DNA from: Bacteroidales bacterium
Lineage (GTDB): Bacteria; Bacteroidota; Bacteroidia; Bacteroidales; UBA12077
DNA: 64,000 bases
Direction of reading: 5' to 3'
Assembly: GCA_016342685.1 (NCBI GenBank)
Contig: JAEINU010000001.1
Location: 824,169 to 888,168, forward strand
The notes below the pieces were generated by a model. The model saw nothing but the letters and a program-made list of their open reading frames with translations. It was not told where the DNA came from and did no database searches. Both the position numbers and the translations under genes were made by a program. This document shows, piece after piece, positions 8,722 through 51,900 of this stretch; within the stretch, counting starts at the first letter, position 1, and every line of letters begins with the position of its first letter.

Positions 8722-8758
8722 TCTTAAAAAAAGAAATATAGGCGAAAAATAAATAATT

Positions 8759-10765: not shown

Positions 10766-10767
10766 TT

Positions 10768-12141: not shown

Positions 12142-12145
12142 GATC

Positions 12146-15238: not shown

Positions 15239-15239
15239 A

Positions 15240-16274: not shown

Positions 16275-16279
16275 AAGCC

Positions 16280-25019: not shown

Positions 25020-25030
25020 TAATAAGTTTA

Positions 25031-25513
25031 TTATTTTTGAATTAAACTGTCATTATTTATTAGAGTATTTTCTATACTTTCAATTTCAAAATCATTTAAG
25101 TATTTATTTTCAGAAAAGACTTTAATATAATCTTGCTCTTCAATATTTAATTCAGAGTATTGTTCTGAATTTCCGGAATATGAACCAATTTGTATTCCAA
25201 TAAATACTGCTATTATAACAGAAGAGAGATACAGGGCTGGTTGCATTATTTTATTATTATATAATCTTGTTAAAACAGAAGTTTTTTGAATAAGATTGCT
25301 TTCTATTTTCTGTTTTAATCTTGTATAATAAAATGCGTGTTCTTCAATATTTTTTGTTGGCTTTAACAAATTAAGCGTATTAATAACGCTGGTATATTTA
25401 CTGTAACATAACGTACAATTATCAAGATGTAATTCAATTGCCTTTCTGTTCTCATCTGATAATGATCCATCAATGTACTTGGATAATATTTTATTTACAT
25501 CTTTACATCTCAT
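25031..25513 (-). CDS. Anti-sigma factor (zf-HC2 type) with single TM
   Basis: N-terminal H-x3-C-x2-C motif (LHLDNCTLC); central TM (LYLSSVIIAVFIGIQIG); located immediately downstream of the ECF sigma gene. Confidence 0.7.
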   Translation of the reverse strand: MRCKDVNKILSKYIDGSLSDENRKAIELHLDNCTLCYSKYTSVINTLNLLKPTKNIEEHAFYYTRLKQKIESNLIQKTSVLTRLYNNKIMQPALYLSSVIIAVFIGIQIGSYSGNSEQYSELNIEEQDYIKVFSENKYLNDFEIESIENTLINNDSLIQK

Positions 25514-25566: not shown

Positions 25567-26136
25567 TTAGTTTTTTTTGTAATAATCAAGTATTAATTTT
25601 TGTAATTTCTTTTTACCTCTATTAATTAAAACTCCAACTTCTGATACAGAAATTTCCATTACTTCTGATATTTCTTTGTACGATAAATCTTCAAAATTAT
25701 TCAGAGTTATAGCTATTCTTTGTTTTTCAGGGAGCTTATTAAGTGCAAAATACAATGCTTTTTTATTTTCGTTACGCTCAAGATCTTCACCAGGCTTTAG
25801 CGCTGTATCTTCAGGATCATTTTTTTTTGAGTCATCATTAAAAAGAACATCTAAACTCGAAAATAATCTATTTTTTTTCTTTGATCTTAAGTAGTTTAAA
25901 GATTTATTAACTGATATTCTGTACAACCAAGTTGTTATTTTAGAATCGCCTCTAAACGATTCGATTGATTCGTAGAACTGAATAAAAACCTCCTGTGAAA
26001 CATCCATAGAATCATCATAGTTGTTTAAAATGTTGTTGCAAATATTTAGTACAAGATGATGATGCATTTCAACAAAGGTTTGAAACGCTTTTTCATCTTT
26101 ATTTGCAATTTTATCTATTAGGATTCTTTCGTCCAT
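25567..26136 (-). CDS. RNA polymerase ECF-type sigma-70 factor
   Basis: Region 2 (FQTFVEMHHHLVLNICNNIL ... WLYRISVNKSLNYLR) and region 4 HTH (LSYKEISEVMEISVSEVGVLINRGKKKL). Confidence 0.85.
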   Translation of the reverse strand: MDERILIDKIANKDEKAFQTFVEMHHHLVLNICNNILNNYDDSMDVSQEVFIQFYESIESFRGDSKITTWLYRISVNKSLNYLRSKKKNRLFSSLDVLFNDDSKKNDPEDTALKPGEDLERNENKKALYFALNKLPEKQRIAITLNNFEDLSYKEISEVMEISVSEVGVLINRGKKKLQKLILDYYKKN

Positions 26137-29068: not shown

Positions 29069-31153
29069 TTAGTTATGTTCAGTCAGATATTTATAAATAT
29101 ATCCATAAAACTCCGAAGTCTCCTTAACATCTTTAAATATTCCTATTGAACCAGAATGCCCGGCATTTTTTATTACTTTCAATAATATTGGATTTTTTTG
29201 GGCATCTCGATTCTGAAGTTTTGCAACAAATTTGTACGAATGAAAAGGAGGCACCCTTTCGTCATTTTCTGAAGTAATAATAAGCATCCCAGGATAATTA
29301 ATATTCTCTTTGATATTATGAAGAGGTGAATAACTTAACAGATTAACAAAATCAGTAGAATCAGAAACAGTACCAAATTCATCAACATGTAAATTACCTA
29401 CGGTGAATTTTTCAAATCTTAACATATCGAATACACCTACAACTGGCACTACCAGCTTGTACAGCTCAGGTCTTTGAATTGCTGATGCAGCAACAATTAA
29501 ACCACCATTTGATCCTCCAGTTATAGCTAATTTATTTGAATTTGTATAATTATTTTTTATTAAGTATTCAGCCGCAGAGTTAAAATCATTAAAAGAATTT
29601 TGTTTATTTTCTCTTCTTCCCTTATTATGCCATTCATGTCCAAAAACACCACTACCTCTTATTTTGGTATACGCCAAAACACCACCATTCTTAATAAAAT
29701 AAATAATACCTGGCTCATAATGTGGCTGAACAATTGATCCAAAACCTCCATATGTTTTAAGTAAAGTTGGATTATCACCATTCAATTCTAAATCTTTATG
29801 ATAGATTAGAAACATGGGAATAACTGTACTATCAGAAGAAAGGTATTCAACTTCTTTGTAAACGATATCTTCGAAATCAAATGTTACCGAGGTATGTTGA
29901 AGCAATTTCCTTTCGAACGTTTGTATGTTAAATTTATAAACTACTGGGGGAAGAGTGTAAGAAGTAAAATAAAACAAAAGTTCAGTATCATCTATATTTC
30001 CATTGAAACCACCTATGGAAGTTGCAATGGGCATTTCAAGAGAGTATAATAAATTTCCATCAAAATCATACACGGTAATAATTGGTCTTTGATTTTTTTG
30101 ATAAATGGCTATAATCTTTTCCTGTAGAATTTTAGTTTCTATTAATACGGATTTCTCGTAAGGTGGTATTATCTCTTTTATATTAAAAGGATTTAATGGA
30201 TCAATTTCGACAATAAAACCTGTATTTGAATTTAAATTTGTACTTGCAATTAGCTTCCCATTTCTACTTTCAAGAATATTAAAATCATCCTTTAAATTCA
30301 TTAAAAGTGGTTTTAATGTAGGATTATCTGATTTATAATCAATGTAAAATATATTTCTTTTTCCTAGGTCTTCATAATCTTCTTTAAGAATAAAGAATCT
30401 TTCATTCGAACTTACGGTAAATTGAAAATCAATTTTAGGATTATTTCTTTTGAAAATTAATTTATCTTCATCTTGATGTTTACCTATTTCATGATAGTAT
30501 ATTTTTTCTCCCAGTGTTGGAGAAAATTTATCTGCTTTGGGATATTTTGAATAGAAAAATCCATTTCCTAACCATTCAATATTTGAGAATTTTATATCTG
30601 TTAAATGATCTTTTAAGTGTATTCCTGTTTTTAGGTTTATAACTTTAACTTCAGCCCAATCACTGCCATTTCTGTCAAATTGATAAGCTAAATATTTTGA
30701 ATCTTTAGACACCGAATAAGCCTTTAATGTAATTTGGTCTTGTTTTGAGATAAAATTTGGATCAACTAAAATTTCTCCAGGTTGATTTAAGTTTGTTTTG
30801 TAAAATAAAGCAGGTAACCCGACCACATTATAATATGCATAGGAGAAATAATACTTACCTTTTTTAACTGGTCTTGAATATTTTGTGTATGAATATTTAT
30901 CGATATTTTTAAAAGCTTGATTTTTATTTATAGCCTTTTGTAACTGTTTTTTAGATATTTTATTTTGCTCATTTATCCAAATTTTAACTTCTTCATTATT
31001 TATATCTTCCATCCATCTGAATCCATCTTCTACAATATAAGCATTAAAAAATGTATCAATAACAGGAATTTCTCTAGCAAAAGGAAATTCAATTTCTTGG
31101 CTAAATATATTATTTGCAATTAATAATAAGGTAAACAAAAATATTTTTCTCAT
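29069..31153 (-). CDS. S9A prolyl oligopeptidase family serine peptidase (secreted), paralogue 2
   Basis: About 65% identical to 26289-28373 over the full length; GGSNGGL motif; signal peptide. Confidence 0.85.
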   Translation of the reverse strand: MRKIFLFTLLLIANNIFSQEIEFPFAREIPVIDTFFNAYIVEDGFRWMEDINNEEVKIWINEQNKISKKQLQKAINKNQAFKNIDKYSYTKYSRPVKKGKYYFSYAYYNVVGLPALFYKTNLNQPGEILVDPNFISKQDQITLKAYSVSKDSKYLAYQFDRNGSDWAEVKVINLKTGIHLKDHLTDIKFSNIEWLGNGFFYSKYPKADKFSPTLGEKIYYHEIGKHQDEDKLIFKRNNPKIDFQFTVSSNERFFILKEDYEDLGKRNIFYIDYKSDNPTLKPLLMNLKDDFNILESRNGKLIASTNLNSNTGFIVEIDPLNPFNIKEIIPPYEKSVLIETKILQEKIIAIYQKNQRPIITVYDFDGNLLYSLEMPIATSIGGFNGNIDDTELLFYFTSYTLPPVVYKFNIQTFERKLLQHTSVTFDFEDIVYKEVEYLSSDSTVIPMFLIYHKDLELNGDNPTLLKTYGGFGSIVQPHYEPGIIYFIKNGGVLAYTKIRGSGVFGHEWHNKGRRENKQNSFNDFNSAAEYLIKNNYTNSNKLAITGGSNGGLIVAASAIQRPELYKLVVPVVGVFDMLRFEKFTVGNLHVDEFGTVSDSTDFVNLLSYSPLHNIKENINYPGMLIITSENDERVPPFHSYKFVAKLQNRDAQKNPILLKVIKNAGHSGSIGIFKDVKETSEFYGYIYKYLTEHN

Positions 31154-35884: not shown

Positions 35885-37888
35885 ATGAGAATTTTTGATG
35901 GATTATTCAAGAGGATTGTTATAATTTTTTTGATTATTATTTTGCTGTGGTTTTTGTTTTCTAATGTTATAATATTCTCATTATTTACAGAAGTAGAAAA
36001 TTATAATCTTATTAAAGAGCATGTTGATTGGGCTTTTGTAATTTTTTCATTTATTCTAATCTATTTTTTAATAAATAGAGAATTTATTAAAAGGAATTAT
36101 AGAAAAGCAGTCATAGCAGCAGAGCAAAATCTGTACAAAACAATATTCGAAACTGCTCATGATGCAATTTATCTATTAAATGATCAATATGAATTTGTTG
36201 ACTGTAATAAGGAAACACTTGACATGTTTCAATGTACAAAAGAGCAAATTATAGGTAAAAAACCTTTTGATGTTTCTCCTTATTTTCAGTTTGGTGAGGT
36301 GAAATCAGAAATGCTATCAACTGAAAAAATGAGTCAAGCAAAAAATGGAAAACCTCAATTTTTTGAATGGTTACATACTAATTTAAAAAAGGATAAATTA
36401 TTTTTTACAGAGGTTTCACTTAATAGATTGGTAATTTCAGGTGAAATTTTTTTATTAGCAGTTATCAGAGATATTTCTAAAAGAAAAAAGGCTGAAAGTA
36501 CATTAACAGAAAGCGAAAAAAAATATCGTCGATTAACTGAAAATTCTCCCAATATAACTTACATTTTTTCAGTAAAAAGAGGTGCTTTATATTGGTCTTC
36601 TAAAGTAAAGGATATTCTTGGTTTTGATTCTGAGAATTTATTAAACAATACACTAAAATGGGGGAATTCAATACATCTAGAAGATAGACCTAAAATAAAA
36701 CTTTTTTTTACAAATATTCAAGTTGGAAAAACATACGAAATAGAATATAGAATATATGATATTCATAAAAAGATACATTGGTTTTATGACAGGATATTTA
36801 ATGTGAGGGAAGAAGATGGAGATATTATTTTAGAAGGTATAATATCAGATATTACGAAACAAAAGGAAACAGAACATATTCTAAAAATAAGTGAAGAAAA
36901 ATATAAGGCACAATATGATTATTTCCCTATACCAATATATACTTTTAAAAAGCAAGGCAAAGACTTATATATCACAGATGTAAATAACGCAGCAAAAAAT
37001 TATCCTTTTGTTAAAGCCGAAGAAATAATAGGAAGGAATGTGACTGACTTTGTTGAAAATAAAGAAGAAATGGTGCTTCTTGATGTTTTAAATGAAACGT
37101 TCAAAATAAAACAAGACCAGAAATTAGAAATGGCCTATAGGTTTAAAACAACAGGTGTAAAAAGAAATATAACTGCCGTTATTGGATTTGTTCCACCCGA
37201 TTCTGTGTTGTTATCTACAATTGATGTAACAGATAAAAGAAATGCACAGCAAAAGGTTTATCATGCAATGATTAATGCGGAGGAACGAGAAAGAAGTCGA
37301 ATTGCTAAAGAATTACATGATGGTGTTTCTCCAATATTGTCGGCTACTAAGCTTTATATACAAACCTTATTGAATTTGAAAGATGAAAAAACAAGGGGTG
37401 AAATATCTAATAAGATTAATAATACAATAAATGAGGCGATTCAAAGTGTATCCGATATCTCAAATAAGCTGAGTCCTCACATTCTTCAAAATTTTGGTTT
37501 ATCTACGGCAATACAATCTTTTTTTGATAAGATAACTGAGATTGCAAATATTCATCATAGTTTTTTTTATAATATTAATAGTAAGCTTGATGAAGATATT
37601 GAAGTTAATATTTATCGAATATTAGTTGAACTTATTAATAATACTGTAAAGTATGCCAATGCAAAAAACATTATCATTAATATTCAAGAAAAGGGAGATG
37701 TAATTAAGATATTTTTTGAACATAACGGTAAGGGTTTTAATATTGAAGAAGTTAGAAGTAAATCTAGGGGCATGGGCTTATATAATTTAGATAATAGAAT
37801 AAATTTATTAAATGGTGATTTCGATATTGAATCTGATATTAAAACTGGACTGAAAGTAAAAATTACTTTTCCTTTAAATATAGAATAA
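35885..37888 (+). CDS. Membrane sensor histidine kinase with three PAS domains and HisKA_3/HATPase_c core (NarL-partner type)
   Basis: Two N-terminal TMs; PAS repeats; H-box ERERSRIAKELHDGVSPIL (HisKA_3); C-terminal ATPase G-boxes. Confidence 0.8.
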   Translation: MRIFDGLFKRIVIIFLIIILLWFLFSNVIIFSLFTEVENYNLIKEHVDWAFVIFSFILIYFLINREFIKRNYRKAVIAAEQNLYKTIFETAHDAIYLLNDQYEFVDCNKETLDMFQCTKEQIIGKKPFDVSPYFQFGEVKSEMLSTEKMSQAKNGKPQFFEWLHTNLKKDKLFFTEVSLNRLVISGEIFLLAVIRDISKRKKAESTLTESEKKYRRLTENSPNITYIFSVKRGALYWSSKVKDILGFDSENLLNNTLKWGNSIHLEDRPKIKLFFTNIQVGKTYEIEYRIYDIHKKIHWFYDRIFNVREEDGDIILEGIISDITKQKETEHILKISEEKYKAQYDYFPIPIYTFKKQGKDLYITDVNNAAKNYPFVKAEEIIGRNVTDFVENKEEMVLLDVLNETFKIKQDQKLEMAYRFKTTGVKRNITAVIGFVPPDSVLLSTIDVTDKRNAQQKVYHAMINAEERERSRIAKELHDGVSPILSATKLYIQTLLNLKDEKTRGEISNKINNTINEAIQSVSDISNKLSPHILQNFGLSTAIQSFFDKITEIANIHHSFFYNINSKLDEDIEVNIYRILVELINNTVKYANAKNIIINIQEKGDVIKIFFEHNGKGFNIEEVRSKSRGMGLYNLDNRINLLNGDFDIESDIKTGLKVKITFPLNIE

Positions 37889-37889
37889 A

Positions 37890-38543
37890 ATGAGCAAAAT
37901 AATTAATATAATTATTGTTGATGACCATGCAATTTTTAGAGATGGTTTGAAATCATTATTATCACAGATCCCAAATTTTTATGTTTTGGATGAAGCAAAA
38001 ACGGGATTGGATTTTTTGAATATTTTACAAAATAGAAAGCCAGATATTGTATTGATGGATATCTCGATGCCCGAGTTAGATGGGGATGAAGCCACAGAAA
38101 AGGCTTTACTACAATATCCAGATCTTAAAATAATAGCACTTTCCAGTTATAGTGATCATATTTATTACTACAAAATGATTAGAGCTGGAGTACAGGGGTT
38201 TGTATTAAAGAAATCGGGTAGAGAAGAACTTGAAGAAGCAATAAATACCGTTTTTAAGGGTGAAAACTATTTTCCTCAGGATATCTTAAGAAATTTAATA
38301 TTTAAATTAGGAAATACAGGAATTGAATCCGTTTTAGATGATCATGTTTCTCTTTCAAAAAGAGAAAAAGAAGTGTTACAATTAATTTGTCAGGGATTTA
38401 CAAATATTGAGATTGCTGAAAAACTTCACATTAGTCCTAAAACCGTAGATAATCACAGAACCAAATTGTTGTCAAAAACCAATACTAAGAATTCAGCTCA
38501 TCTTGTTATGTTTGCTATCAAGAATCACTTAATAGAAGTCTAG
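37890..38543 (+). CDS. NarL/FixJ-family response regulator (REC + LuxR-type HTH)
   Basis: REC domain (IIVDDH ... VLMDISMP ... ALSSY); LuxR HTH (REKEVLQLICQGFTNIEIAEKLHISPKTVDNHRTKL). Start is 2 bp after the kinase stop. Confidence 0.85.
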   Translation: MSKIINIIIVDDHAIFRDGLKSLLSQIPNFYVLDEAKTGLDFLNILQNRKPDIVLMDISMPELDGDEATEKALLQYPDLKIIALSSYSDHIYYYKMIRAGVQGFVLKKSGREELEEAINTVFKGENYFPQDILRNLIFKLGNTGIESVLDDHVSLSKREKEVLQLICQGFTNIEIAEKLHISPKTVDNHRTKLLSKTNTKNSAHLVMFAIKNHLIEV

Positions 38544-38585
38544 AAATTAAGTGATTTATAGTTATATCTCTAGTTTTTTAAAGTA

Positions 38586-38630
38586 AAATTAGGGGATTTA
38601 CCCTATCGATTTAGTGTTTTCCCCTCTTAT
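38586..38630 (+). promoter_or_regulatory. Conserved 45-bp element with inverted repeat (AGGGGA..24 bp..TCCCCT, inner GGGGAtttACCC), 46 bp upstream of the cheY-like gene; copy 1
   Basis: 42/45 identical to the copy at 42770-42814. Same spacing to the start codon in both copies. Lies just downstream of the NarL-type regulator gene. Confidence 0.55.
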
Positions 38631-38676
38631 TACTTATTGAATAGTAAATTATTTTTGGCATTAAAATATTAGTGCC

Positions 38677-39090
38677 GTGAAAATAATAATTGTTGATGAC
38701 AATAAAACTTTTAGAGAAAGCCTGAAATATTATGTGGAAGACGAACTTTTGCATGAAGTTATCGCTATGGCGGTAGATGGACTGGAGTTTCTAAAAATTG
38801 AAAATATTCATAAAGCCGACATCGTTTTAATGGATATAGAAATGCCTAATTTAAATGGCATTGAAACTACAAAAAGAGCTTTGAATGATTACCCTGCTTT
38901 AAAAATTGTGGCAATTACAAATTATACCGATAGAGCTTATCTTATTGACTTGTTAAGTGCTGGATTTAAGGGCTGTGTTTTTAAGAATAGTGTTTACGAT
39001 GATCTTAAGAATGCTCTTTCTAATTTGTTTTCTAACAAGTTATATTTTCCAAATAACATATTAACAATAAGGAATATAGTAAACAAATAA
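38677..39090 (+). CDS. cheY: CheY-like single-domain response regulator (GTG start), module A
   Basis: Receiver residues present: DD (7-8), D in LMDIEMP, T in AITNY, K in FKGCVFK; no output domain. Confidence 0.7.
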   Translation: MKIIIVDDNKTFRESLKYYVEDELLHEVIAMAVDGLEFLKIENIHKADIVLMDIEMPNLNGIETTKRALNDYPALKIVAITNYTDRAYLIDLLSAGFKGCVFKNSVYDDLKNALSNLFSNKLYFPNNILTIRNIVNK

Positions 39091-39100
39091 TATATTATAT

Positions 39101-39574
39101 ATGGAGATAGACAGCAAAACACAAATTAACTCCTATTTAACGTTTAAAATTGGAGTTGAAGAGTTCGGAATTCAAGTAAATAAAGTACTAAATATTCTTG
39201 AATTGCAAGAAATTACAAATGTTCCAAAATCTCCTGAGTATATGAAAGGAGTTATTAATTTAAGAGGAACAATTCTTCCAATAATTGATACTCGGATTAA
39301 ATTTGAAATGACTCCAACTGAGTTTACAGATGATACATGTATTGTGGTGATGGATTTAGTAGTAGAAGATGAGATAATGCATGTTGGAGCCTTGGTCGAT
39401 TCTGTTGTTGCAGTTCGTGAAATTGATGAAAGTCAAATTAATCCATCTCCGAATATTGGTAAAAGTTATAAATCAGAATTTATTTCTGGACTCGTTAAAA
39501 TTAATGAAAGCTTTGTCATGATTTTGGATGTAATTAAGCTTTTTACAGGTGAAGATTTAAAGGATTTAAATTAA
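39101..39574 (+). CDS. cheW: Chemotaxis coupling protein CheW, module A
   Basis: Classic CheW core LTFKIGVEEFGIQVNKVLNILE...PKSPEYMKGVINLRGTILPIIDTR. Confidence 0.85.
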   Translation: MEIDSKTQINSYLTFKIGVEEFGIQVNKVLNILELQEITNVPKSPEYMKGVINLRGTILPIIDTRIKFEMTPTEFTDDTCIVVMDLVVEDEIMHVGALVDSVVAVREIDESQINPSPNIGKSYKSEFISGLVKINESFVMILDVIKLFTGEDLKDLN

Positions 39575-39631
39575 AAAAGGAATTATAAAATGACGTTTAA
39601 TAATTAAAAATTAGTAATAACACAATTAATT

Positions 39632-40378
39632 ATGAAAAGAAGAATAGTTTTAATAATTGTATTAATACTAATAAGCTTTAGCGGTTTTTCACAGGATATA
39701 ACATTAGTCAATAAGGATTCTAAATCTTATACCGATATAGGAGCCGATATTGTAAGTAGTTATGTTTGGAGAGGTTTGCAAGTTGATGCATCTCCTAATA
39801 TTCAAGGATGGGGAGAGTTTGGTAATAATTTTTTTAATTTTGGTGTTTGGGCTTCTAGTAATTTTAATGGAAGTTATGTAGAAGCAGATGTTTATGCAGG
39901 ATTCACAATCGGAGGATTTAACGCTTTACTAACGGATTATTTTGTGGGATCGGATGATTTTTTCAACTTTGATAAAAATACAACTACTCATGTAGCAGAA
40001 TTAGCTCTACAATACACAATAAGTGATAATTTCCCTTTGCAATTTACATTTGGAACATTAATTTTTGGAGACGATAAACAAATTGCTTCAGTTGATTTAA
40101 ATGATGATCCTGTTTTTAATAATAAGAATAATTTTTCTTCTTACATCGAACTTATGTACACAATTACACATCGAAATACTGAAATTTCATTTGTTGCTGG
40201 CGGAGTAACTCATGAAAGTTATTATTATTCCAGCGAAAGAGCTTCCATTATAAATTTGGGAGTTGTAGCTTCTAAAGAAATAAAAATTACAGATAATTTT
40301 AGTTTACCTATATCTTTTGGATTGACAGTAAATCCAGAGCTTGAGAGTATATATACTGTTGTAGGTATCACATTATAA
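39632..40378 (+). CDS. Outer-membrane beta-barrel protein, possibly TorF-like putative porin, module A
   Basis: Signal peptide; YVWRGLQVD motif resembling the TorF/Gcw_chp family; alternating beta-strand pattern; C-terminal aromatic-rich strand. Confidence 0.45.
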   Translation: MKRRIVLIIVLILISFSGFSQDITLVNKDSKSYTDIGADIVSSYVWRGLQVDASPNIQGWGEFGNNFFNFGVWASSNFNGSYVEADVYAGFTIGGFNALLTDYFVGSDDFFNFDKNTTTHVAELALQYTISDNFPLQFTFGTLIFGDDKQIASVDLNDDPVFNNKNNFSSYIELMYTITHRNTEISFVAGGVTHESYYYSSERASIINLGVVASKEIKITDNFSLPISFGLTVNPELESIYTVVGITL

Positions 40379-40401
40379 ATCATTAGATTAATTAATAAGT
40401 T

Positions 40402-42474
40402 ATGAGAACAAATTCAATAAAAACAAAACTTTCTCTTGTTTTAGGAGTGATAATATTAATTGCAATAGCAATAATAATTACGGTGTCAAGCATTAATGGA
40501 AACAAAGTTGCCATTGAGAATGCAGAAAACAAGATGGTATCTACTTTAGAGAATTCCACACAAAAACTCGAAAATATTATTAATAAAAATATTTTGGAAA
40601 TGGAAGCTCATTGGAATGATTTAAAAGTTTTGATTCAATATGAAAATTTTGATAGAACACAAGTTCAGGATATTTATAAAAATATGCTGAAAAAAGATGC
40701 TTCTGCCATTGGATATACAATATGTCTTAAGCCTGGTTGTTTTGATGGCAAATCTGATGATTATAAAGGATATCCAGGTTATTATTCTGATGGACGTTTT
40801 AGTGAGTATTTATATAAGGAAGGTAATCAAATCTTAAGAGATGAATTGACCATTTCTTTTGAACAGGATCTTCAAGAGGCAGGTTCTGATTGGTGGAGAA
40901 TACCGGAAAAGACAAAAGAAAACTTTATCTATATGGATATATACAATGTTGGTGGGAAAGACGTATTAATGGTTTCTGTTACATATACAATACTTCGTAA
41001 CAACGAATTTATTGGAGTAATATGTAAAGATTTTATTAGTGAATTTATACAGCAAGAAGCTATAGAAGCAAATAGTAAACTTTTTAAAGGTCAAGGTAAT
41101 ATAGAAATATACGATCAGGATGGAAATATAGCTGCAGATACTAAAAATGCAGAAAATGTAGGGAAGGATCTCAAAACTATATCAAATGAAAATTACTCAG
41201 AAATTATAAGTTCAATAAAACAGGGAGAAGAAAGAACTTATAAAGAAAATGGTAATTACTACTGTGTAGTTCCTATTAAATTTAATGGAAGTACATCGAA
41301 TTGGCAAATGAGAGTAGAGATTCCTGAAAATGTAATAAAAGAAAAAGCAATGTTGCTAATGAGAAATCAGCTTATAATTGGATTATTTTCAATTTGTATA
41401 AGTATTCTTATTATATTTTTAATTGTAAAAAGAATGCTTAATCCATTAAACAGTTTAACCGCCTTTTCTGAAAAAGTAGCACAAGGTATTCTTTATGAAA
41501 ATATTAATATTGACAGGGATGACGAAATAGGTCAGTTAGCTAAAGCATTTTCTATAATGATGAGTAGAATTAGAGAAGTAGTTAATGGAGTAAAAGATAA
41601 TGCCGATAATCTTGTTAGTGCTAGTCAACAATTGAGTTCAAGTTCAGAAGAAATGTCCCAAGGTGCATCCGAACAAGCATCGTCAACAGAAGAAGTTTCT
41701 TCATCAATGGAAGAGATGTCGTCTAATATTCAACAAAATACAGATAATGCACAGGAAACAGAAAAAATATCTGTTGTGGCTGCAAAAGGAATATCGGAGG
41801 TTGAAAAGGCTGCTAAAGAAAGTTTAACATCAATTAAGCAAATTGCAGATAAAATAACCATTGTTAACGACATTGCATTTCAAACGAATATTTTAGCATT
41901 AAATGCTGCTGTCGAAGCTGCTAGGGCAGGAGAGCACGGTAGAGGTTTTGCTGTTGTTGCTGCCGAAGTAAGAAAATTAGCAGAGCGTAGTAAAATTGCT
42001 GCCGACGAAATAGTTTCCTTATCTACTTATAGTGTTAAAGCAACTGCAGACGCAGGAGAACTAATGTCAAAAATAATTCCGGAGGTTGAAAAAACTGCAA
42101 GATTAGTGCAGGAGATTACTGCTGCTAGCTTAGAGCAAAATTCAGGTGCCGATCAAATAAATAGTGCGATACAGCAATTAAATCAGGTAACTCAGCAAAA
42201 TGCTGCGGCAAGCGAAGAAATGTCTACAAGTTCAGAAGAGCTTTCTAGTCAAGCTGAACAACTTAAGGATATGGTGAGTTTCTTCAAGGTAGATAATTCT
42301 GAAAATTATATGGGCGTTAGGTCTAATACTTTACAACAGTTTAATCAAGATTCAAAATTTGTAAAAACTGCAGGATCAAACGGTAGTAAGAACAAAAAGG
42401 TTCTTGATGAAAAAGGGTTTGATCTTAATTTAAATGAATCTAATAAAATAGATAATGAATTTGAATCATTTTAG
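40402..42474 (+). CDS. Methyl-accepting chemotaxis protein with periplasmic double-Cache-like sensor, HAMP and MCP signalling domain (MCP1)
   Basis: TM1/TM2 flank a ~285-aa extracytoplasmic domain; HAMP; highly conserved MCP signalling core ([40 protein letters not shown]); C-terminal NEFESF. Confidence 0.9.
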
Positions 42475-43283: not shown

Positions 43284-43787
43284 ATGGAAATAGAAACTAA
43301 AATAAAAATTGATTCTTATTTAACTTTTAAGATCGGTGATGAAGAATTTGGAGCACATGTAAATAAAGTGCTTAATATTCTTGAGTTACAAAATATTACG
43401 AAAGTTCCTAAATCTCCGGAGTATATGAAAGGAATTATTAACTTGAGAGGAAAAGTGCTTCCAGTTATTGATACTCGGATCAAATTTAATATGAATCCAA
43501 CTGAGTTTACCGATGATACCTGCATTGTAGTTATGGATCTAGAAATTGAAGATGATGTTATACATATAGGGGCTCTAGTCGATTCTGTTGTTGCTGTTCG
43601 AGAAATTGATGAAAATCAAATTAATCCTCCACCAAGTATTGGGAAAAGTTATAAGTCCGAATTTATTACAGGAATAGTTAAAGTTAATGAAAGGTTTGTG
43701 CAGATTTTGGATTTAGTAAAGCTTTTTACTGGTACAGAATTGAGTGAATTAAAGAAATCACAAAACAAGGTAAATGAAGAAGATTAA
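43284..43787 (+). CDS. cheW: Chemotaxis coupling protein CheW, module B
   Basis: About 75% identical to module A CheW. Confidence 0.85.
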   Translation: MEIETKIKIDSYLTFKIGDEEFGAHVNKVLNILELQNITKVPKSPEYMKGIINLRGKVLPVIDTRIKFNMNPTEFTDDTCIVVMDLEIEDDVIHIGALVDSVVAVREIDENQINPPPSIGKSYKSEFITGIVKVNERFVQILDLVKLFTGTELSELKKSQNKVNEED

Positions 43788-44772
43788 AATTCTATTTACG
43801 GTTTATTTACTGATTTTAACTGCAACTATGTTTGCTAATGATTCAGATTCTGTTGATATCTATCCTAAAACAAAACCAATTATTAAGGTTTTTGGGAATT
43901 ATCATTTTGGATTAAACGATTATTCAACCGTGAATGCTTTTGAACTAACAAGGGCATATTTGGGTTATGATGTAAAAGTATCCGAAAATATTAGTTTTAA
44001 AACCAATATAGACATGGGTCGACCAACATCCGATAGCAAATATGATTATGTTGCATACTTAAAAACTGCTGCTTTAAAATATCATAAAGGCAAAATACAG
44101 ATTAACGCTGGATTGATTGGTTTAAAGCAATTTAAATTGCAAGAAAAAATATGGGGACACAGATATGTTTATAAATCTCTTCAAGATGAGCATAAGTTTG
44201 GACATAGTGCAGATTTAGGTGTTATGCTAGAGTATAAACTAATTGATGGTTTATTTATAGATGCAACGATAAGGAACGGAGAAGGATATAAAAAATTACA
44301 ATCAGACGAAACCTTTAATGGAGCGCTGGGAATTACGTATCACGTTTGGAAAAATATTGTTGTAAGAGGTTCATATGAACATTCAGAGAAATCTATAAAT
44401 CAATCTGTTTATTCTGGGTTAATAGGATTTCAAATGAAAGATGTAATACTTATGGGAGTTGAATATAATTATATGCAAAACTCTTCATATATCAAAAATC
44501 ATAATTTAACTGGTTATTCTGCTTACCTAACATTTATTATGAATGATAAGTTTCAGTTATTTGGGCGATACGATAATTTGAAATCAAACAAAATAAATGA
44601 TGAAATTATTTCATGGAACGAATCAAATGATGGAGAAGCAATAATCGCAGGTGTACAATATAAATTAGAGAAGAATTTAAAGGTATCTACTAATTTACAA
44701 TATTGGGCGCCCGATAAAAATAGTTTAAATAAAGAAGTTTACGCTTTTATAAGTTTAGAGTATAAATTATAA
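43774..44772 (+). CDS. Outer-membrane beta-barrel porin-like protein, module B (family differs from the module A barrel)
   Basis: Signal peptide; ~16 amphipathic beta strands; C-terminal strand ISLEYKL; overlaps CheW-B stop by 14 bp (translational coupling). Confidence 0.45.
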   Translation: MKKIKILFTVYLLILTATMFANDSDSVDIYPKTKPIIKVFGNYHFGLNDYSTVNAFELTRAYLGYDVKVSENISFKTNIDMGRPTSDSKYDYVAYLKTAALKYHKGKIQINAGLIGLKQFKLQEKIWGHRYVYKSLQDEHKFGHSADLGVMLEYKLIDGLFIDATIRNGEGYKKLQSDETFNGALGITYHVWKNIVVRGSYEHSEKSINQSVYSGLIGFQMKDVILMGVEYNYMQNSSYIKNHNLTGYSAYLTFIMNDKFQLFGRYDNLKSNKINDEIISWNESNDGEAIIAGVQYKLEKNLKVSTNLQYWAPDKNSLNKEVYAFISLEYKL

Positions 44773-44784
44773 AAATTATAAAAA

Positions 44785-46782
44785 ATGAAAAATTTAAGAA
44801 TAGGTACAAAACTAGCTATTGGATTTATTATTGTAATTGGTATTAGTGTAGTTATTGGTCTTGTCGGTTATACAGGCATGCATTCTTTAAACGACAGAAT
44901 TGATAAAACAGAAGATGCGCACTCTGTTAGTAAAATGGCTTTAGATTTAAGAAGATATGAAAAGGACTTTATGCTTCGTCATGATGAAAAATCGATACAA
45001 GGCGGAACTAAAACCCTAGAGTCTATTTATGGTCAAATAGAAGAGTCTAAGTTGAAGTTTAAAGATCAAAAGGATTTAGATGATCTTGATGTATTAAAAC
45101 AAAAAGGAGATAATTATAAAGATGCTCTAACTGAGTATGTTAGAATTTACCAAGAAGACTATACTTTTAATATAGAGAAAACCATAAAAGAAGGAGAAAA
45201 AGCCATTGAGTTAGCTAAGGCGCTTCAATTATCTCAAAAACAACAAATGATCGATGAATTAGCAAAAGAAGTAAATAAGAATTTCTTGCTTAAACGTTTT
45301 GAAAAAAATGAACTGTCAAATGATATTCTAGAATCTTTTGCTGTAATACGTATAGATGCTAAAGGTTTTGTAATTAGTCGTGATCAAAAAGACGGCGCAA
45401 AAGTTATTGAGCAATTGGATCTTTTACTTGATAAAATTGACTATACAAAGAAGTTGATGAAAAAGAAAGTTGATATTCAGCAGCTTGAAGAGATGTATAA
45501 TGCGGTTGATGTTTATAAAAACGCTTTTGAAAAATCAGTTGAAGTTGTTGCTTTACAGGAAGATGAAGCCGATGTGATGGTAAGTTCAGCTCATGAATTT
45601 ATTGCTGTTGCTGATAAGTTAAAAGATGGTCAGTCTTTAAAAATGGTAAAAGAAGAACAGCGAGCTAGTTCTATGATTATAAGTTTTATGATTCTTGGAA
45701 TTATTTTAGGTGTTGTTATGGCATATATAATTACTCGAGGGATTATAACCGGACTTAGAAAAGGAGTCGATTTTGCAACTGCTATTGCAAAGGGAGATTT
45801 AACAGCAGAAATTGATATTGATCAGAAAGATGAAATAGGTTTATTAGCAAGATCATTAAAGATCATGGTTTTAAAACTTAAAGAGATTGTTTCTGATATA
45901 ACATCTGGAGCTGAAAATATTGCATCTGCAAGTCAGCAATTAAGTTCTGGATCAGAGGAAATGTCGCAAGGTGCATCAGAACAAGCATCATCTACAGAAG
46001 AAGTTTCATCATCAATGGAAGAAATGACTTCAAATATTCAACAAAATACTGATAATGCACAAGAAACGGAAAAGATATCAGTTATGGCAGCCAAAGGAAT
46101 CTCAGATGTTGAAAAGGCAGCTAAAGAAAGTTTAACATCGATTAAACAAATTGCAGAAAAAATTACAATTGTTAATGATATTGCATTTCAAACAAATATT
46201 TTAGCTTTAAATGCTGCTGTCGAAGCTGCTAGAGCAGGAGAGCATGGTAGAGGTTTTGCAGTTGTTGCAGCTGAGGTTCGCAAATTAGCCGAACGAAGTA
46301 AAGTGGCAGCTGATGAAATAATTTCATTATCGACATATAGTGTTAAGGCAACCGAAGAATCTGGTGAATTAATGTCTAAAATAATACCTGAAATTGATAA
46401 AACAGCAAGATTGGTGCAAGAGATTACGGCTTCTAGTTTAGAACAAAATTCAGGTGCCGATCAAATAAATGGTGCGATACAGCAATTAAATCAGGTAACT
46501 CAACAAAATGCAGCTGCCAGCGAAGAAATGTCTACAAGTTCAGAAGAACTATCTAGTCAAGCAGAACAACTTAAAGATGTTGTAAGTTTTTTCACCTTGA
46601 ATGATAAAACAAGAAATTTTAAGGGTAGTAAAAACACTTTAAAAGAATTTAAATTTGAAAAGCAAGACACACGCACAGATCGTATTAAAAAAGAATCTGC
46701 TGGTCATAGTGAAAATGCTAAAGGCTTTGATTTAAAATTGAATACAAACGACAATATGGATAAAGATTTTGAATCGTTTTAG
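44785..46782 (+). CDS. Methyl-accepting chemotaxis protein with all-helical periplasmic sensor (4HB/HBM-like), HAMP and MCP signalling domain (MCP2)
   Basis: Two TMs flank a ~265-aa helical domain; signalling domain ~90% identical to MCP1; C-terminal KDFESF. Confidence 0.9.
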
Positions 46783-47356: not shown

Positions 47357-49420
47357 ATGAAAAGAACACTTTCTATTCGGTCCAAACTAATTTATTTGGT
47401 TTTGATTACATGCATGCTTATATACTCTATAACAATTGCATACTTAATAATTAATTTAAAGTCATCATCACTAGAAGATGCTAAAAGACTGGTAGAAGAA
47501 TCAATTAAAACAGGAGCAAAAGAAATTGAAGCTGAATTGAACTTGCATATGGGGGTTGCTCGCAGTTTGGCTTATACCATGTCCGATTTCGAAAATATAT
47601 CTATTGAGAATAGAAGCCAATTTTACAATCCTATTTTAAGTAAAACATTAGATGCTAATCCGAATTACATTGGTACATATTTCACAATGGAATTAAGTGC
47701 ATACGATCCAGAATGGGGAAATGCTCCTGGCAGGGAATCAAAAATATTTTACAAAGATAAAGGAACAATTCATTACAATGAAGTTATACATGATGTTGGA
47801 GGAGTTAAGAAAAGAACAGGATATCATAAGGTAAAAGATACCATGAAGGAAGCAATATGGGAGCCATACTGGTGTGATACATATTCAACCGAAGCAGGAA
47901 GAGTACTCGAAACAACACTTGGTGTACCAATTATTATAGAAGGTCAATTCATGGGACTAGCAGGAATTGATATTGAGCTTAGTGTTTTTAAAGAATTAAT
48001 TGCTAAGATACAGCCTTTTAAGGATGGTTATGCCTTTCTACTATCGAATGAATCAACCTATGTTGCTCACCCTGATCCTGCTTGCATAGCAAAAAAATTC
48101 GATGAAGAAAATCCGGATGAAGAGCAATTGTACCATATAAGTGAAAAAATTAAAAATGGCGAAAGTTTTTCTTTTGAGGCAATACATACAGATTCAAACA
48201 ATGATTTATATGTAAAATTTGTGCCAGTGCATATCGCAAGTACTACAACACCTTGGTCACTTGGAATATTAGTTCCTATTAATTCAATTATGGTGAATTC
48301 GAACCGAATTATAAAAATCACGCTCATTGCAGGTTTTATTGGATTACTCATTCTGTTTTTAGTTATCTCAAATGTTAGCCGTAGCATTATTAAACCCATT
48401 AAGGATAGTGTTGATTTTGCTGAAAAAATTAGCCAAGGTGATTTGAATGCTAAATTAGATTTCGATTCAAATGACGAAATTGGCATTTTGGCTAAACATT
48501 TAATGAGTATGACCGAAAAGTTTAAAGAAGTTGTTGAGCAAATAAAGCAAAGCGGTGATGAAATAAATCAGGCCAGTATAAGGATTTATAAAAACTCAGA
48601 TCAACTTGCTTCAGGAGCCAATAGTCAGGTGGCAGCAACCGAGGAAGTTTCTTCTTCAATGGAAGAAATGATTGCTAATATTCAACAGAATACAGATAAT
48701 GCTCAGTTAACTGAGAAAATTACTTTGGTTGCAGCAGACGGTATAAATAAGGGAAATGCATCAACTGAAATTTCTGTAAAGTCGATGAGAAAGATTGCAG
48801 AAAAAATAACAATTATAAATGATATTGCATTCCAAACTAATATTTTAGCGCTAAATGCGGCTGTTGAAGCAGCAAGAGCAGGAGAACATGGTAAAGGATT
48901 TGCAGTTGTGGCTGCCGAAGTAAGAAAATTAGCTGAAAGAAGTAAAATTGCTTCGGATGAAATAAATCAACTTTCGCGTGAAGGAGTTCTAATTTCTGAA
49001 GAAGCTGGAGAACAATTGGCAGAAATTGTTCCAGAAATCGAGAAAACGTCAAAATTAGTTCAAGAAATTGCTGCAGCTAGTATGGAGCAAAATAGTGGTG
49101 CTGATCAAATTAATAGTGCAATACAACAATTAAATAAAATAACTCAACAAAACGCCGCTGCTAGTGAAGAAATGGCAACTAGCTCGGAAGAGCTTACTCA
49201 TCAGGCAGATCAATTAAATCATGTTGTAAGTTTCTTTAAAATTAGTGATGATTCAAAAATATACAATAGGAAAAAGTCTTTAAAACAACCTAAAGCTGAA
49301 AATTATTACAAAAACACAAATATTAAAAATGAAGATTCTATTCAAAGTAAAAATGTTAAAGGTTTTGATTTAAAGCTAAATACAACTGATAATATGGATA
49401 AGGATTTTGAATCGTTTTAG
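47357..49420 (+). CDS. Methyl-accepting chemotaxis protein with periplasmic double-Cache-like sensor (MCP3)
   Basis: Two TMs; Cache-like ~285-aa sensor; HAMP; MCP core; C-terminal KDFESF. Confidence 0.9.
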
Positions 49421-49875: not shown

Positions 49876-51900
49876 ATGAAATGGAAAAATTTAAAATTAG
49901 GAAGAAAGTTTCTTATCTCTTTTGGTTTAATCATAATGCTTCTGGTTGTTGTTGCTTTTTGGTCAATTAATGGTATAGGAGGAATTGTAAATGATGCCGA
50001 AGAAGTAATCGAAGGAAATAAACTTAGAGCGGATTTGGAAAATAAATATGTTCAACATCTTCAGTGGGCATCTAAAGTAAATAAATTATTAACTGATGAG
50101 AATGAAACGGTGCTCAATGTTCAAACCGATCCACATAAATGTGATTTTGGTAAGTGGTATTATAGTGAAGGGAGAAAACATGCAGAATCGCTAGCTCCTG
50201 AATTAAAATCTCTATTCGATGAGATTGAAGAACCTCACTTACATTTGCATGAATCAGCAACAAAGATAAATAATGTTTTTCATCAGGCCGACGTAACATT
50301 TGGAGACAAGCTTAGGGATGTAAAGAGTGCTCATTTGTTATGGGCACATTCAATTAAAGATGCTTTATTGCAACAAAAAAAGACCCTTGCTGTACAAACT
50401 GATCATCATAAATGTGAATTTGGGATATGGTTGGATTCGGATGAAATTATTCAAATGAGAAAAGAAGATCCAGAGTTAGACAGGTTATTAGTTAAGATCA
50501 TAGAACCTCATGAAAAACTTCACACAAGTGCTGTTCAGATACAAAATTATCTTTCACAAAGAAACTTTAATGCAGCTTATAATTATTATAATAACAATAC
50601 AAATAATTATGCGATAGCAACTTTAGATTTAATAGATGATGTCATTGCTTGGAATGATAAACATGTCCAAGGTATGAAGGAAGCCAATGCAATTTATAAT
50701 AATGAAACATTAGTTAACCTAGAACAAGTTGGAGATTTATTTTCTAAGATAGTTGAAAAATCAAAGGAGTATATTCTTACTGAAGATGTAATGCTTCAAC
50801 AAGCGGGAATTACAAGGGTAGGAGTAATTATTTTTAGTGTAATTGCCTCATGTATAGCAATTGTAGTGGCATTTTTTATTACACGTGGAATTGTAAATCC
50901 TGTAAAAAAATCAGTTGAATTTGCAAAAAAAGTAGCAAATGGTGATTTAACTGCTACTGTTGAAATTGATCAAAAAGACGAAATAGGAGTTCTAGCAAGT
51001 TCATTGAAAGATATGGTAGGTGAGTTGCGCAAAATTGTTGTAAATATTCAGGATGGTGCAGCCAATATCACTAGTGCAAGTTTAGAGATGAGTTCAACTT
51101 CTCAACAGATGTCACAAGGTGCTTCGGAGCAGTCTACTTCAACCGAGGAAGTTTCTTCATCAATGGAAGAAATGACATCTAATATTCAACAGAATACTGA
51201 TAATTCAAAGCAAACTGAAAAAATATCATTAGCTGCTGCAGAAGGAATTACGAATGTTGCAAATGCTGCGGATGAGAGTTTAATATCTATTAAACAAATT
51301 GCAGAAAAAATTACAATAGTCAATGATATTGCATTTCAAACAAATATTTTAGCATTAAATGCTGCAGTAGAAGCTGCTCGTGCAGGAGAACATGGAAAAG
51401 GTTTTGCAGTTGTTGCTGCTGAGGTTAGAAAGCTTGCAGAGCGAAGTAAAATTGCTGCCGATGAAATTAACGATCTTTCAAGAAGTAGTTTAGACGTTAC
51501 TAATGAAACAAGTGCATTAATGAAGAATATTATTCCTGAAATTGAAAAAACAGCTAGTTTGGTGCAGGAAATTACAGCATCTAGCTTGGAACAAAATTCA
51601 GGAGCGGATCAAATTAATAGTGCTATTCAACAATTAAACCTAGTAACGCAGCAAAATGCCGCAGCAAGCGAAGAAATGGCTACAAGTTCAGAAGAGTTAT
51701 CAAGCCAAGCTGAACAGTTAAAAGATATCTTAGGTTTCTTTAAGGTTGATAGAAAAAATATAAATAAATTGGAAAGATCTTATTCTTTAAAGCCAAGCTT
51801 GTCAAAAAGTGCTTTAGGGAAAAAATCAAAGATTGATATAGTTAAGAATCAAGGCCTTGATTTAAAAGATAATCTCGATAGTGAATTTGAATCGTTTTAG
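49876..51900 (+). CDS. Methyl-accepting chemotaxis protein with two tandem periplasmic CZB (chemoreceptor zinc-binding)-like domains (MCP4)
   Basis: Between TM1 (res 12-31) and TM2 (res 313-333): HLQW...[12 protein letters not shown]...EEPHLHLH and HLLW...[12 protein letters not shown]...EPHEKLH. This matches the CZB H-x3-C ... H ... H zinc site twice. HAMP; MCP core; C-terminal SEFESF. Confidence 0.85.

What the first reader, a model, noticed from the sequence alone, without database searches (positions are those of the whole stretch)
42400..42474. All four MCPs end in a conserved tail KGFDLKLN...D[KE][DE]FESF: a candidate CheR/CheB-tethering pentapeptide
The C-termini are NEFESF, KDFESF, KDFESF and SEFESF. 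The x-F-x-x-F pattern has aromatic residues at positions 2 and 5, paralleling the enterobacterial NWETF pentapeptide that docks CheR and CheB. The linker preceding it (GFDLKLN) is also conserved. This predicts a pentapeptide-dependent methylation system in this lineage.
Basis: partly seen in the sequence, partly recalled or inferred. Interest (0 to 1): 0.5.

Follow-up and report, generated by a model that had tools for sequence, protein, structure and literature searches.

The report
Chemoreceptor tails that likely tether CheR
Four chemotaxis receptors of an uncultured Bacteroidales bacterium end in the acidic, two-aromatic tail typical of one receptor class, which most likely holds the adaptation enzyme CheR close to the receptors; this kind of tail is already catalogued, so the finding is real but largely ordinary.

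Summary
All four MCPs in the window, and no other of its 38 large ORFs, end in D-x-[DE]-F-E-S-F. A K/QG[FL]DL motif lies upstream of it, and both sit at the end of a 50-60-residue variable linker.

The receptors belong to heptad class 34H, whose published tether motif is x[FY]xx[FY] (Geobacter consensus EFEKF). 84% of 191 non-redundant Bacteroidota homologue tails carry it. The same 1.45-Mb contig of the window's MAG encodes CheY, CheA, CheR and CheD about 290 genes upstream. A relative whose CheR is about 98% identical has the full CheA-CheW-MCP-MCP-CheR-HK-CheD-CheB operon, with tail-bearing MCPs next to CheR.

The CheR keeps the long beta-subdomain loop and the R197 equivalent of pentapeptide-dependent Salmonella CheR. 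Its AlphaFold model matches 1BC5 best. It lacks the loop glycines, and no binding has been shown.

High abundance of such tails in Bacteroidetes was reported in 2020, so this is a new member of a known kind. The mildly new point is the second motif, G-phi-x-phi-x-phi. It lies a near-fixed 7-8 residues before the pentapeptide in 78% of tails (1% expected by chance), which suggests a roughly 20-residue two-part docking module.

The parts
40402..42474 (+). MCP1 (690 aa; PDC/dCache-type sensor, HAMP, class 34H signalling domain, 60-aa tail)
   Evidence: Pfam MCPsignal 7e-32, HAMP and MCP-like_PDC_1. The alignment to Tsr shows one 7-residue gap in each arm.
42292..42411 (+). MCP1 variable linker (40 aa, rich in N, S and K)
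   Evidence: 18% mean pairwise identity among the paralogues. The AF2 model of the equivalent MCP2 segment is coil with pLDDT 55-57.
42412..42432 (+). MCP1 upstream motif KGFDLNL (G-phi-x-phi-x-phi)
42451..42471 (+). MCP1 terminal heptapeptide DNEFESF (pentapeptide EFESF)
44785..46782 (+). MCP2 (665 aa; HBM sensor). Tail 46600-46779, KGFDLKL at 46720-46740, DKDFESF at 46759-46779.
   Evidence: The exact protein is MBI9052853.1.
47357..49420 (+). MCP3 (687 aa; dCache sensor). Tail 49244-49417, KGFDLKL at 49358-49378, DKDFESF at 49397-49417.
49876..51900 (+). MCP4 (674 aa; two CZB domains). Tail 51748-51897, variant motif QGLDLKD at 51850-51870, DSEFESF at 51877-51897.
39101..39574 (+). CheW paralogue 1, two genes upstream of MCP1
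   Evidence: Pfam CheW 2e-35. The protein is MBI9052847.1.
43284..43787 (+). CheW paralogue 2, two genes upstream of MCP2
   Evidence: Pfam CheW 8e-37. The protein is MBI9052851.1.
38677..39090 (+). Stand-alone receiver (CheY-like) protein, 137 aa, immediately upstream of CheW1
   Evidence: Pfam Response_reg 1.6e-21. A syntenic REC gene is present in L001.

Best explanation
The four genes encode class-34H methyl-accepting chemoreceptors. Each signalling hairpin is followed by a disordered linker of about 35-40 residues and then a conserved module of about 20 residues at the extreme C-terminus. The module is [KQ]-G-phi-x-phi-x-phi, then 7-8 residues, then D-x-[DE]-[FY]-E-x-[FY]-COOH.

The terminal acidic, two-aromatic peptide is the 34H-class version of the NWETF tether. 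It most likely docks on the basic beta-subdomain loop of the operon-encoded CheR (KYFLKSKNQEKKQVRV in this genome). It may also dock, more weakly, on CheB. Docking would raise the local enzyme concentration so that this receptor and its neighbours in the array, including the minority of tail-less 34H receptors, are methylated and demethylated efficiently.

Shown here:
- the motif and its selective conservation;
- the 34H class;
- CheR, CheA, CheY and CheD in the same genome;
- the CheR loop length, the R197 equivalent and the fold.

Inferred:
- physical binding;
- involvement of CheB;
- the role of the upstream motif. I propose that it pairs with, or binds beside, the terminal peptide on the same partner, because the spacing between the two is nearly fixed.
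For: 1. Tail motif. It is present in 4 of 4 window MCPs and in none of the other large ORFs. The linker is 18% identical among paralogues, against 79% for the last seven residues.

2. Receptor class. phmmer against E. coli Tsr (36H; 3zx6, 6s1k, 1qu7) aligns end to end with exactly one 7-residue gap in each arm, which gives class 34H. The literature states that pentapeptide MCPs are restricted to 36H (xWxxF) and 34H (x[FY]xx[FY]). The Geobacter 34H consensus is EFEKF, and those receptors are encoded with a cognate CheR group (PMC2577667).

3. Spread of the motif. 161 of 191 non-redundant tails (84%) carry it. The consensus is D(-7) 89%, [ED](-5), Y/F(-4) with 0% W, E(-3) 88%, F/Y(-1). 75 of 82 complete MCP ORFs in the fetched loci carry it, including the MCPs directly upstream of cheR.

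4. Enzymes in the same genome. CheR P0297 (MBI9052533.1) lies on the same 1,454,937-bp contig, with CheY (MBI9052530), CheA (2531), a mini-HK (2534) and CheD (2535). L089, whose CheR is about 98% identical, shows the full operon with CheB.

5. CheR features. The beta-loop has the same length as in Salmonella CheR, R197 is kept and R187 is Lys, whereas P. aeruginosa CheR1 is 3-4 residues shorter. These are the criteria of PMC5907407. Catalytic R98, D154 and Y235 are conserved. The AF2 model has pLDDT 88, and its best PDB match is 1bc5_A, the CheR-NWETF complex (TM 0.84/0.89, rmsd 2.6 A), ahead of B. subtilis CheR and P. aeruginosa CheR1.

6. Charge complementarity. The acidic tail faces a Lys-rich loop, in line with the remark in PMC7390727.

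7. Tether properties. The linker is predicted to be unstructured, and methylation-site consensus motifs are present in all four MCPs.
Against: - The CheR loop lacks G188, G190 and G194, the glycine ('GXX') signature used to call pentapeptide-dependent CheRs.
- No W occurs at position 2, and R197 was described as contacting that Trp.
- Some enterobacterial CheBs do not bind pentapeptides at all (PMC7698151), so CheB docking is uncertain.
- CheB of the window's MAG was not observed directly.
- No complex could be modelled and no binding data exist for any Bacteroidota system.
- The tail is about 25 residues longer than in Tsr and carries an extra conserved motif of unknown partner.
Confidence: 0.72

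Rival explanations
1. The tail, or at least its upstream G-phi-x-phi-x-phi part, docks a different lineage-specific partner rather than CheR or CheB. Candidates are other genes of the conserved operon: the unannotated 587-625-aa protein, the 305-aa soluble histidine kinase, the STAS protein and CheD.
For: The operon REC-unknown-STAS-CheY-CheA-CheW-(MCP)-CheR-HK-CheD-CheB is conserved across the Bacteroidota loci and contains components absent from E. coli. The G-motif is absent from Nitrospira tails (GDEFEEF), whose loci also lack the unknown protein, the STAS protein and, between CheR and CheD, the mini-HK.
Against: The terminal peptide matches the published CheR-tether motif of 34H receptors. 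The CheR has the required loop and R197. The fixed 7-8-residue spacing between the two motifs argues for one binding surface. There is no evidence for any other partner.
Confidence: 0.12
2. The terminal motif is a stability, turnover or localisation signal, such as a protease or adaptor recognition tag, unrelated to adaptation enzymes.
For: C-terminal short motifs on disordered tails often serve as degrons. Nothing specific from the tools supports this reading here.
Against: The motif is found only on MCPs in the window. It follows the receptor-class rule for CheR tethers. It is genomically linked with cheR.
Confidence: 0.05
3. The similarity of the four tails reflects only recent duplication or gene conversion, with no function.
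For: The four signalling domains are 61-80% identical and the genes are clustered.
Against: The linker between two conserved blocks has diverged to 18% identity. The same motif occurs in 84% of homologues from Bacteroidales, Cyclobacteriaceae, Flavobacteriales, Lentimicrobiaceae and beyond.
Confidence: 0.02

Closest known systems
E. coli / Salmonella Tar and Tsr NWETF pentapeptide with CheR (PDB 1BC5) and CheB
   Same: Both have an extreme C-terminal x-aromatic-x-x-aromatic peptide on a flexible linker after the signalling domain. CheR has a beta-subdomain of the same length with the R197 equivalent. Tail-less receptors coexist with tailed ones.
   Different: The receptor class is 34H rather than 36H. 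Position 2 is F/Y and never W. The conserved part is a strongly acidic heptapeptide, D-x-[ED]-[FY]-E-x-[FY]. The tail is 50-60 aa rather than about 35. There is an extra upstream motif. The CheR loop glycines are replaced by S-K-D/N.
Geobacter class-34H MCPs ending in EFEKF with 'group B' CheR (Tran et al. 2008, PMC2577667)
   Same: Same receptor class and an almost identical pentapeptide (E[FY]E[KS]F). The MCP genes are co-located with the cognate cheR. This is the closest published analogue.
   Different: The phylum differs. I could not retrieve the Geobacter sequences, so I could not test identity of the CheR loop or presence of the G-phi-x-phi-x-phi motif there. One Desulfobacteraceae CheR orthologue (L068) has the same KSKD-type loop.
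In-silico survey of xZxxZ chemoreceptors (Ortega & Krell 2020, PMC7390727)
   Same: The survey reports high abundance of pentapeptide-bearing chemoreceptors in Bacteroidetes and Balneolaeota, and a predominantly negative net charge of the peptide.
   Different: The survey considers only the last five residues. In the text I read, it does not describe the upstream motif, the D at -7 or the CheR partner in this phylum.
P. aeruginosa McpB/Aer2 GWEEF with CheR2/CheB2, and P. syringae PSPTO_0912 (34H, F8 cluster) with a GXX-insertion CheR
   Same: The tail is specific to the CheR encoded in the same cluster. In P. syringae a 34H receptor is assigned to an F8 system.
   Different: Those CheRs carry the GXX insertion with glycine. 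There, the tail marks a single receptor among many, whereas here it marks the large majority.

Membership tests
Pentapeptide-bearing (CheR/CheB-tethering) chemoreceptors | Extreme C-terminus matches x-[HFWY]-x(2)-[HFWY] | tested here: met
   EFESF or DFESF in all four MCPs. Motif definitions come from PMC7390727 and PMC7184735.
Pentapeptide-bearing (CheR/CheB-tethering) chemoreceptors | The peptide is separated from the signalling domain by a flexible linker of at least 10 residues | tested here: met
   There are 50-60 residues after the last signalling helix. The linker is 18% identical among paralogues and is coil with pLDDT 55-57 in the AF2 model. The criterion is from PMC7698151.
Pentapeptide-bearing (CheR/CheB-tethering) chemoreceptors | The receptor belongs to heptad class 36H or 34H | tested here: met
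   There is one 7-residue gap per arm relative to 36H Tsr, which gives 34H. The rule is from PMC2577667.
Pentapeptide-bearing (CheR/CheB-tethering) chemoreceptors | The peptide physically binds CheR (micromolar) and/or CheB | not testable with these tools
   Complex prediction and binding assays are not available here.
Pentapeptide-dependent CheR (Salmonella CheR type) | Long beta-subdomain loop (3-residue insertion relative to pentapeptide-independent CheRs) | tested here: met
   P0297 and 80 orthologues align without gaps to Salmonella CheR across RYFMRGTGPHEGLVRV. P. aeruginosa CheR1 is 3-4 residues shorter. The AF2 hairpin is E186-188, loop, E196-199.
Pentapeptide-dependent CheR (Salmonella CheR type) | Arg197 equivalent (and Arg187) in the binding site | tested here: met
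   Window-MAG CheR is KYFLKSKNQEKKQVRV: the R197 equivalent is kept and R187 is Lys. Across orthologues these positions are R or K. The criterion is from PMC5907407 and PMC2577667.
Pentapeptide-dependent CheR (Salmonella CheR type) | Loop glycines G188, G190, G194 ('GXX' insertion containing Gly) and Q182 | tested here: not met
   In Bacteroidota these are replaced by S, N/D and K/R, and Q182 by K/R. They are retained in the Nitrospira orthologues (RGKGDSAG).
Pentapeptide-dependent CheR (Salmonella CheR type) | Overall CheR fold with catalytic R98, D154 and Y235 | tested here: met
   Pfam and NCBIfam identify it as CheR. The catalytic residues are conserved in the alignment. The best fold match is 1bc5_A, TM 0.84.
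Complete methylation/demethylation system in the same genome | cheR and cheB are present | tested here: inconclusive
   cheR, cheA, cheY and cheD are shown on the window's contig. cheB is shown only in the relative L089, whose CheR is about 98% identical, and in nearly all orthologous operons. It was not seen directly for the MAG.
F8-class chemosensory system | Classification of CheA, CheW, CheB and CheR by the Wuichet-Zhulin profile models | not tested
   Only the literature link from 34H to F8 (PMC11253619 and PMC7184735) is available. No class HMMs were at hand.

The most novel reading that the evidence does not exclude
In Bacteroidota the tether is not a pentapeptide but a two-part module of about 20 residues. 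It has an amphipathic strand-like motif (G-phi-x-phi-x-phi), a near-fixed spacer of 7-8 residues, and an acidic D-x-[ED]-[FY]-E-x-[FY] end. The two parts may fold as a beta-hairpin onto the glycine-less, lysine-rich beta-loop of this phylum's CheR. Alternatively, the module may hold CheR and a second enzyme (CheB or CheD) side by side. Either way it would be a distinct tethering mode that co-evolved with the altered CheR loop.
Probability: 0.3. Interest if true: 0.5.

Novelty: new member of a known kind. Interest (0 to 1): 0.28.

Why it matters
Adaptation by receptor methylation is what gives chemotaxis its memory, and tethering of CheR and CheB sets its speed and its pathway specificity. Nearly all experimental knowledge comes from Proteobacteria with xWxxF tails.

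This locus, together with the roughly 80 orthologous operons collected here, gives a concrete and testable CheR-tail pair for the 34H-type system of Bacteroidota, a phylum in which chemosensory signalling has hardly been studied. It also points to an extended, fixed-spacing tail motif that published surveys of the last five residues would have missed.

If the simple reading holds, the result mainly confirms an existing bioinformatic prediction.

Tried and rejected
- Exact-protein look-ups of the MAG's own genes (MCP1 and CheW P0191) in the look-up of encoding contigs found nothing, because the NCBI MAG is not position-indexed. I therefore could not walk along the contig. I used cluster membership and the contig-length signature instead.
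- The single genome-contig scan with the MAG's CheR returned no match above 80% identity. The MAG is therefore not a GTDB representative, and its cheB could not be read directly.
- CheW paralogues of the same MAG or its relatives (P0191/P0269, L006) turned out to be further CheW-MCP pairs, not the core operon.
- Perez & Stock 2007 and Garcia-Fontana 2014, the primary sources for the CheR criteria, are not held. I took the criteria from papers that cite them.
- AF2 of the isolated last 100 residues of MCP2 gave only coil for the tail. There was a small pLDDT rise (71) at the G-motif, so no hairpin is shown. Complex prediction is not possible with the tools.
- The promoter and terminator scan of the MCP region was uninformative. 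Promoter-like sites were fewer than in the shuffles and terminator-like sites were about as many.
- I looked for covariation between the R197/K197 CheR variants and the tail variants across lineages. No clear pattern emerged.
- A literature search for a described Bacteroidota chemosensory system found nothing specific.

Full report
OBSERVATION

The interval 42400-42474 is the 3' end of a 690-codon ORF (40402-42474, + strand) and reads ...[24 protein letters not shown] followed by a stop. Pfam confirms four methyl-accepting chemotaxis proteins in the window, all with HAMP and MCPsignal but with different sensors:
- 40402-42474: PDC/dCache-like sensor
- 44785-46782: HBM sensor
- 47357-49420: dCache sensor
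- 49876-51900: two CZB domains

Three carry KGFDL[NK]L 19-20 residues from the end. The fourth has QGLDLKD with a shorter spacer. None of the other 34 ORFs of at least 150 aa ends in [FWY]xx[FWY].

The four are paralogues, so simple counting overstates independence. The informative control is the gradient of conservation. Mean pairwise identity is 74% in the signalling domain, 18% in the 41-column linker, 71% in the G-motif and 79% in the last seven residues.

WHERE THE WINDOW COMES FROM

Ten window proteins are exact matches to proteins MBI9052824-MBI9052865 of an NCBI MAG labelled 'Bacteroidales bacterium', all on one contig of 1,454,937 bp. G+C content is 31%. Near-identical relatives exist in JGI metagenomes 3300035388 and 3300035389. 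The citrate-lyase cluster also contains Tenuifilaceae MAGs.

WHAT THE RECEPTORS ARE

phmmer against PDB chains aligns the signalling domain end to end with E. coli Tsr (3zx6, 6s1k, 1qu7). There is exactly one 7-residue gap in the N-terminal arm (4+3) and one in the C-terminal arm (5+2). Tsr is the 36-heptad (36H) reference, so these receptors are class 34H.

This is decisive for interpretation. According to Tran et al. 2008 (PMC2577667, summarising Alexander & Zhulin 2007 and Perez & Stock 2007), CheR-tethering pentapeptides occur only in classes 36H (xWxxF) and 34H (x[FY]xx[FY]). The Geobacter 34H consensus is EFEKF, and those receptors are encoded next to a matching 'group B' CheR. The window's EFESF and DFESF are therefore the textbook 34H motif.

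All four receptors also carry methylation-site consensus motifs such as [10 protein letters not shown] and [10 protein letters not shown]. The tail after the last signalling helix is 50-60 residues, against about 35 in Tsr. An AF2 model of the last 100 residues of MCP2 gives a helix for residues 2-36 and then coil, with pLDDT 55-57 in the linker. This is as expected for a flexible tether.

HOW WIDESPREAD THE TAIL IS

I pooled 120 homologues from the protein search and the MCP ORFs from 90 fetched loci. Of 191 non-redundant tails, 161 (84%) end in [FWY]xx[FWY].

The conserved unit is longer than five residues:
- position -7: D in 89%
- position -5: E or D
- position -4: Y 58%, F 41%, W 0%
- position -3: E in 88%
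- position -1: F 83%, Y 16%

Receptors without the motif mostly stop 3-15 residues after the signalling helix. These are tail-less receptors like E. coli Trg and Tap.

Of the 161 tailed receptors, 126 (78%) have G-[VIF]-x-[LI]-x-[ML] within the last 32 residues, against 1% in composition-matched shuffles. The gap to the pentapeptide is 7 or 8 residues in 75% of cases, although total tail length varies widely. Many exceptions keep phi-x-phi-x-phi without the Gly.

The motif occurs in Bacteroidales, Marinilabiliales, Cyclobacteriaceae, Flavobacteriales, Lentimicrobiaceae and Roseivirgaceae loci. It does not occur in the Nitrospira (…GNGHDRRAKGDEFEEF) or Treponemataceae tails found with orthologous CheRs.

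THE ENZYMES

A CheW search revealed a distinct 174-178-aa CheW type. Its context is a core operon: REC, an unknown 587-625-aa protein, STAS, CheY, CheA, CheW, (MCP)n, CheR, a 305-aa HisKA/HATPase kinase, CheD and CheB.

Searching with that CheR returned P0297 (285 aa), whose only contig is the 1,454,937-bp contig of the window. Cluster look-ups give it accession MBI9052533.1. They also place the unknown protein (MBI9052528), CheY (2530), CheA (2531), the mini-kinase (2534) and CheD (2535) on the same contig, about 290 genes before the window's genes.

The CheR of JGI relative L089 is about 98% identical. L089 shows the whole operon, including CheB, and two MCPs immediately upstream of cheR that end in ...[20 protein letters not shown] and ...KGFDLKIDDVDNEYEKF. 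CheB of the MAG itself was not seen directly. The same operon order holds in most of the 80 loci recovered from GTDB genomes.

DOES THIS CheR LOOK PENTAPEPTIDE-DEPENDENT?

Published criteria are a longer beta-subdomain loop ('GXX insertion'), R197, and contacts at Q182, R187, G188, G190 and G194 (PMC5907407, PMC2577667, PMC11253619).

The Bacteroidales CheRs hit Salmonella CheR (1af7, 1bc5) best, at E = 6e-46. They align without gaps over RYFMRGTGPHEGLVRV, whereas pentapeptide-independent P. aeruginosa CheR1 needs a 3-4-residue gap there.

The window MAG's loop is KYFLKSKNQEKKQVRV. The length is kept, the R197 equivalent is kept and R187 is Lys. The three glycines are replaced by S, N and K, and Q182 by K. 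Nitrospira orthologues of the same CheR family still have RGKGDSAG, so the family appears to descend from the glycine-bearing type. Second CheRs present in a few loci lack the loop altogether.

Catalytic R98, D154 and Y235 are conserved. An AF2 model (pLDDT 88, pTM 0.83) shows the hairpin E186-188, loop, E196-199. Its best PDB match is 1bc5_A, the CheR-NWETF complex (TM 0.84/0.89, rmsd 2.6 A). B. subtilis CheR scores 0.72 and P. aeruginosa CheR1 scores 0.66. The Lys-rich loop complements the acidic tail, as Ortega & Krell noted for pentapeptides in general.

CONCLUSION AND NOVELTY

Its interpretation is the best-supported one, and both of its stated refutation conditions fail.

The idea is not new. 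Class-specific x[FY]xx[FY] tethers of 34H receptors were described in 2007-2008. The high abundance of xZxxZ receptors in Bacteroidetes was reported in 2020 (PMC7390727).

What is not in the texts I could read is the phylum-wide second motif at fixed spacing, the invariant Asp at -7, and the glycine-less CheR loop. Together these allow a modestly novel reading: a two-part docking module that co-evolved with CheR. That reading is untested. CheB binding is also open, since some CheBs ignore pentapeptides (PMC7698151).

I rate this a new member of a known kind, with low-to-moderate interest.

Noticed in passing
window 39101-42474 and 43284-46782: A module occurs twice: CheW, then a secreted protein resembling an outer-membrane beta-barrel, then an MCP. 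The middle ORFs are 39632-40378 (248 aa, no family hit) and 43774-44772 (332 aa, sub-threshold OMP_b-brl hit). An outer-membrane protein gene wedged between cheW and mcp is unusual. It might supply or gate the ligand for the adjacent receptor.
   Followed up: partly
L089 315-13419; also L002, L004 and about 70 of L009-L088. In the window's MAG these are MBI9052528-2535, outside the window.: The core che operon of Bacteroidota is strongly conserved. It contains three non-canonical genes: an unannotated 587-625-aa protein (no Pfam or NCBIfam hit), a small STAS-domain protein before CheY-CheA, and a 305-aa soluble HisKA/HATPase histidine kinase between CheR and CheD. This suggests an extra signalling branch built into the chemosensory pathway.
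   Followed up: partly
window 42292-42411, 46600-46719; L001, L006, P0003, P0116: A third, weaker motif, [ST]-L-[KQ]-[EQ]-F, lies about 12-15 residues after the end of the signalling helix in the linker of close relatives only (for example NTLKEF, NTLQQF, NLQEFKPKAKP). It may be family-level inertia or a further docking element.
   Followed up: no
window 35885-39090: A PAS-PAS HisKA_3 histidine kinase (35885-37888), a LuxR/GerE response regulator (37890-38543) and a stand-alone receiver protein (38677-39090, GTG start) lie directly upstream of the first CheW. The same arrangement is syntenic in L001.
   Followed up: partly
window 5578-17473: A gene run encodes a 1047-aa HEAT-repeat protein, a HAMP-SpoIIE (PP2C) phosphatase (8759-10765), an unannotated 457-aa protein, an nSTAND1 NTPase fused to WD40 repeats (12146-15238) and an OMP beta-barrel protein (15240-16274). 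It looks like a STAND-type signalling or defence-like cluster.
   Followed up: no
window 26289-28373 (-) and 29069-31153 (-): Two paralogous 694-aa secreted proteins, of which 26289-28373 was confirmed as an S9 prolyl oligopeptidase by Pfam, are separated by a 188-aa ORF. A 2303-aa secreted protein lies nearby (17517-24428), as does an ECF sigma factor gene (25567-26136) next to two small ORFs (24465-25513) that may encode an anti-sigma factor.
   Followed up: no
L046, L047, L057, L058, L060, L063, L078 (downstream of the core operon): Some Bacteroidota (Marinilabilia, Geofilum, Alkaliflexus and others) carry a second CheR-CheB pair right after the first. Where I examined it (L046, L060, L078), the second CheR lacks the long beta-loop, so pentapeptide-dependent and pentapeptide-independent enzymes may coexist. 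In these lineages the tail variant is ...DLSNLGKEFDLDNYEKF.
   Followed up: partly
one search hit list: The homologue search with the C-terminal 290 aa of MCP2 did not list the query's own full-length cluster (P0145, 665 aa), and every listed hit was shorter than 510 aa. The word-index ranking seems biased towards short or fragmentary targets. This matters when absence from that list is read as absence from the database.
   Followed up: no
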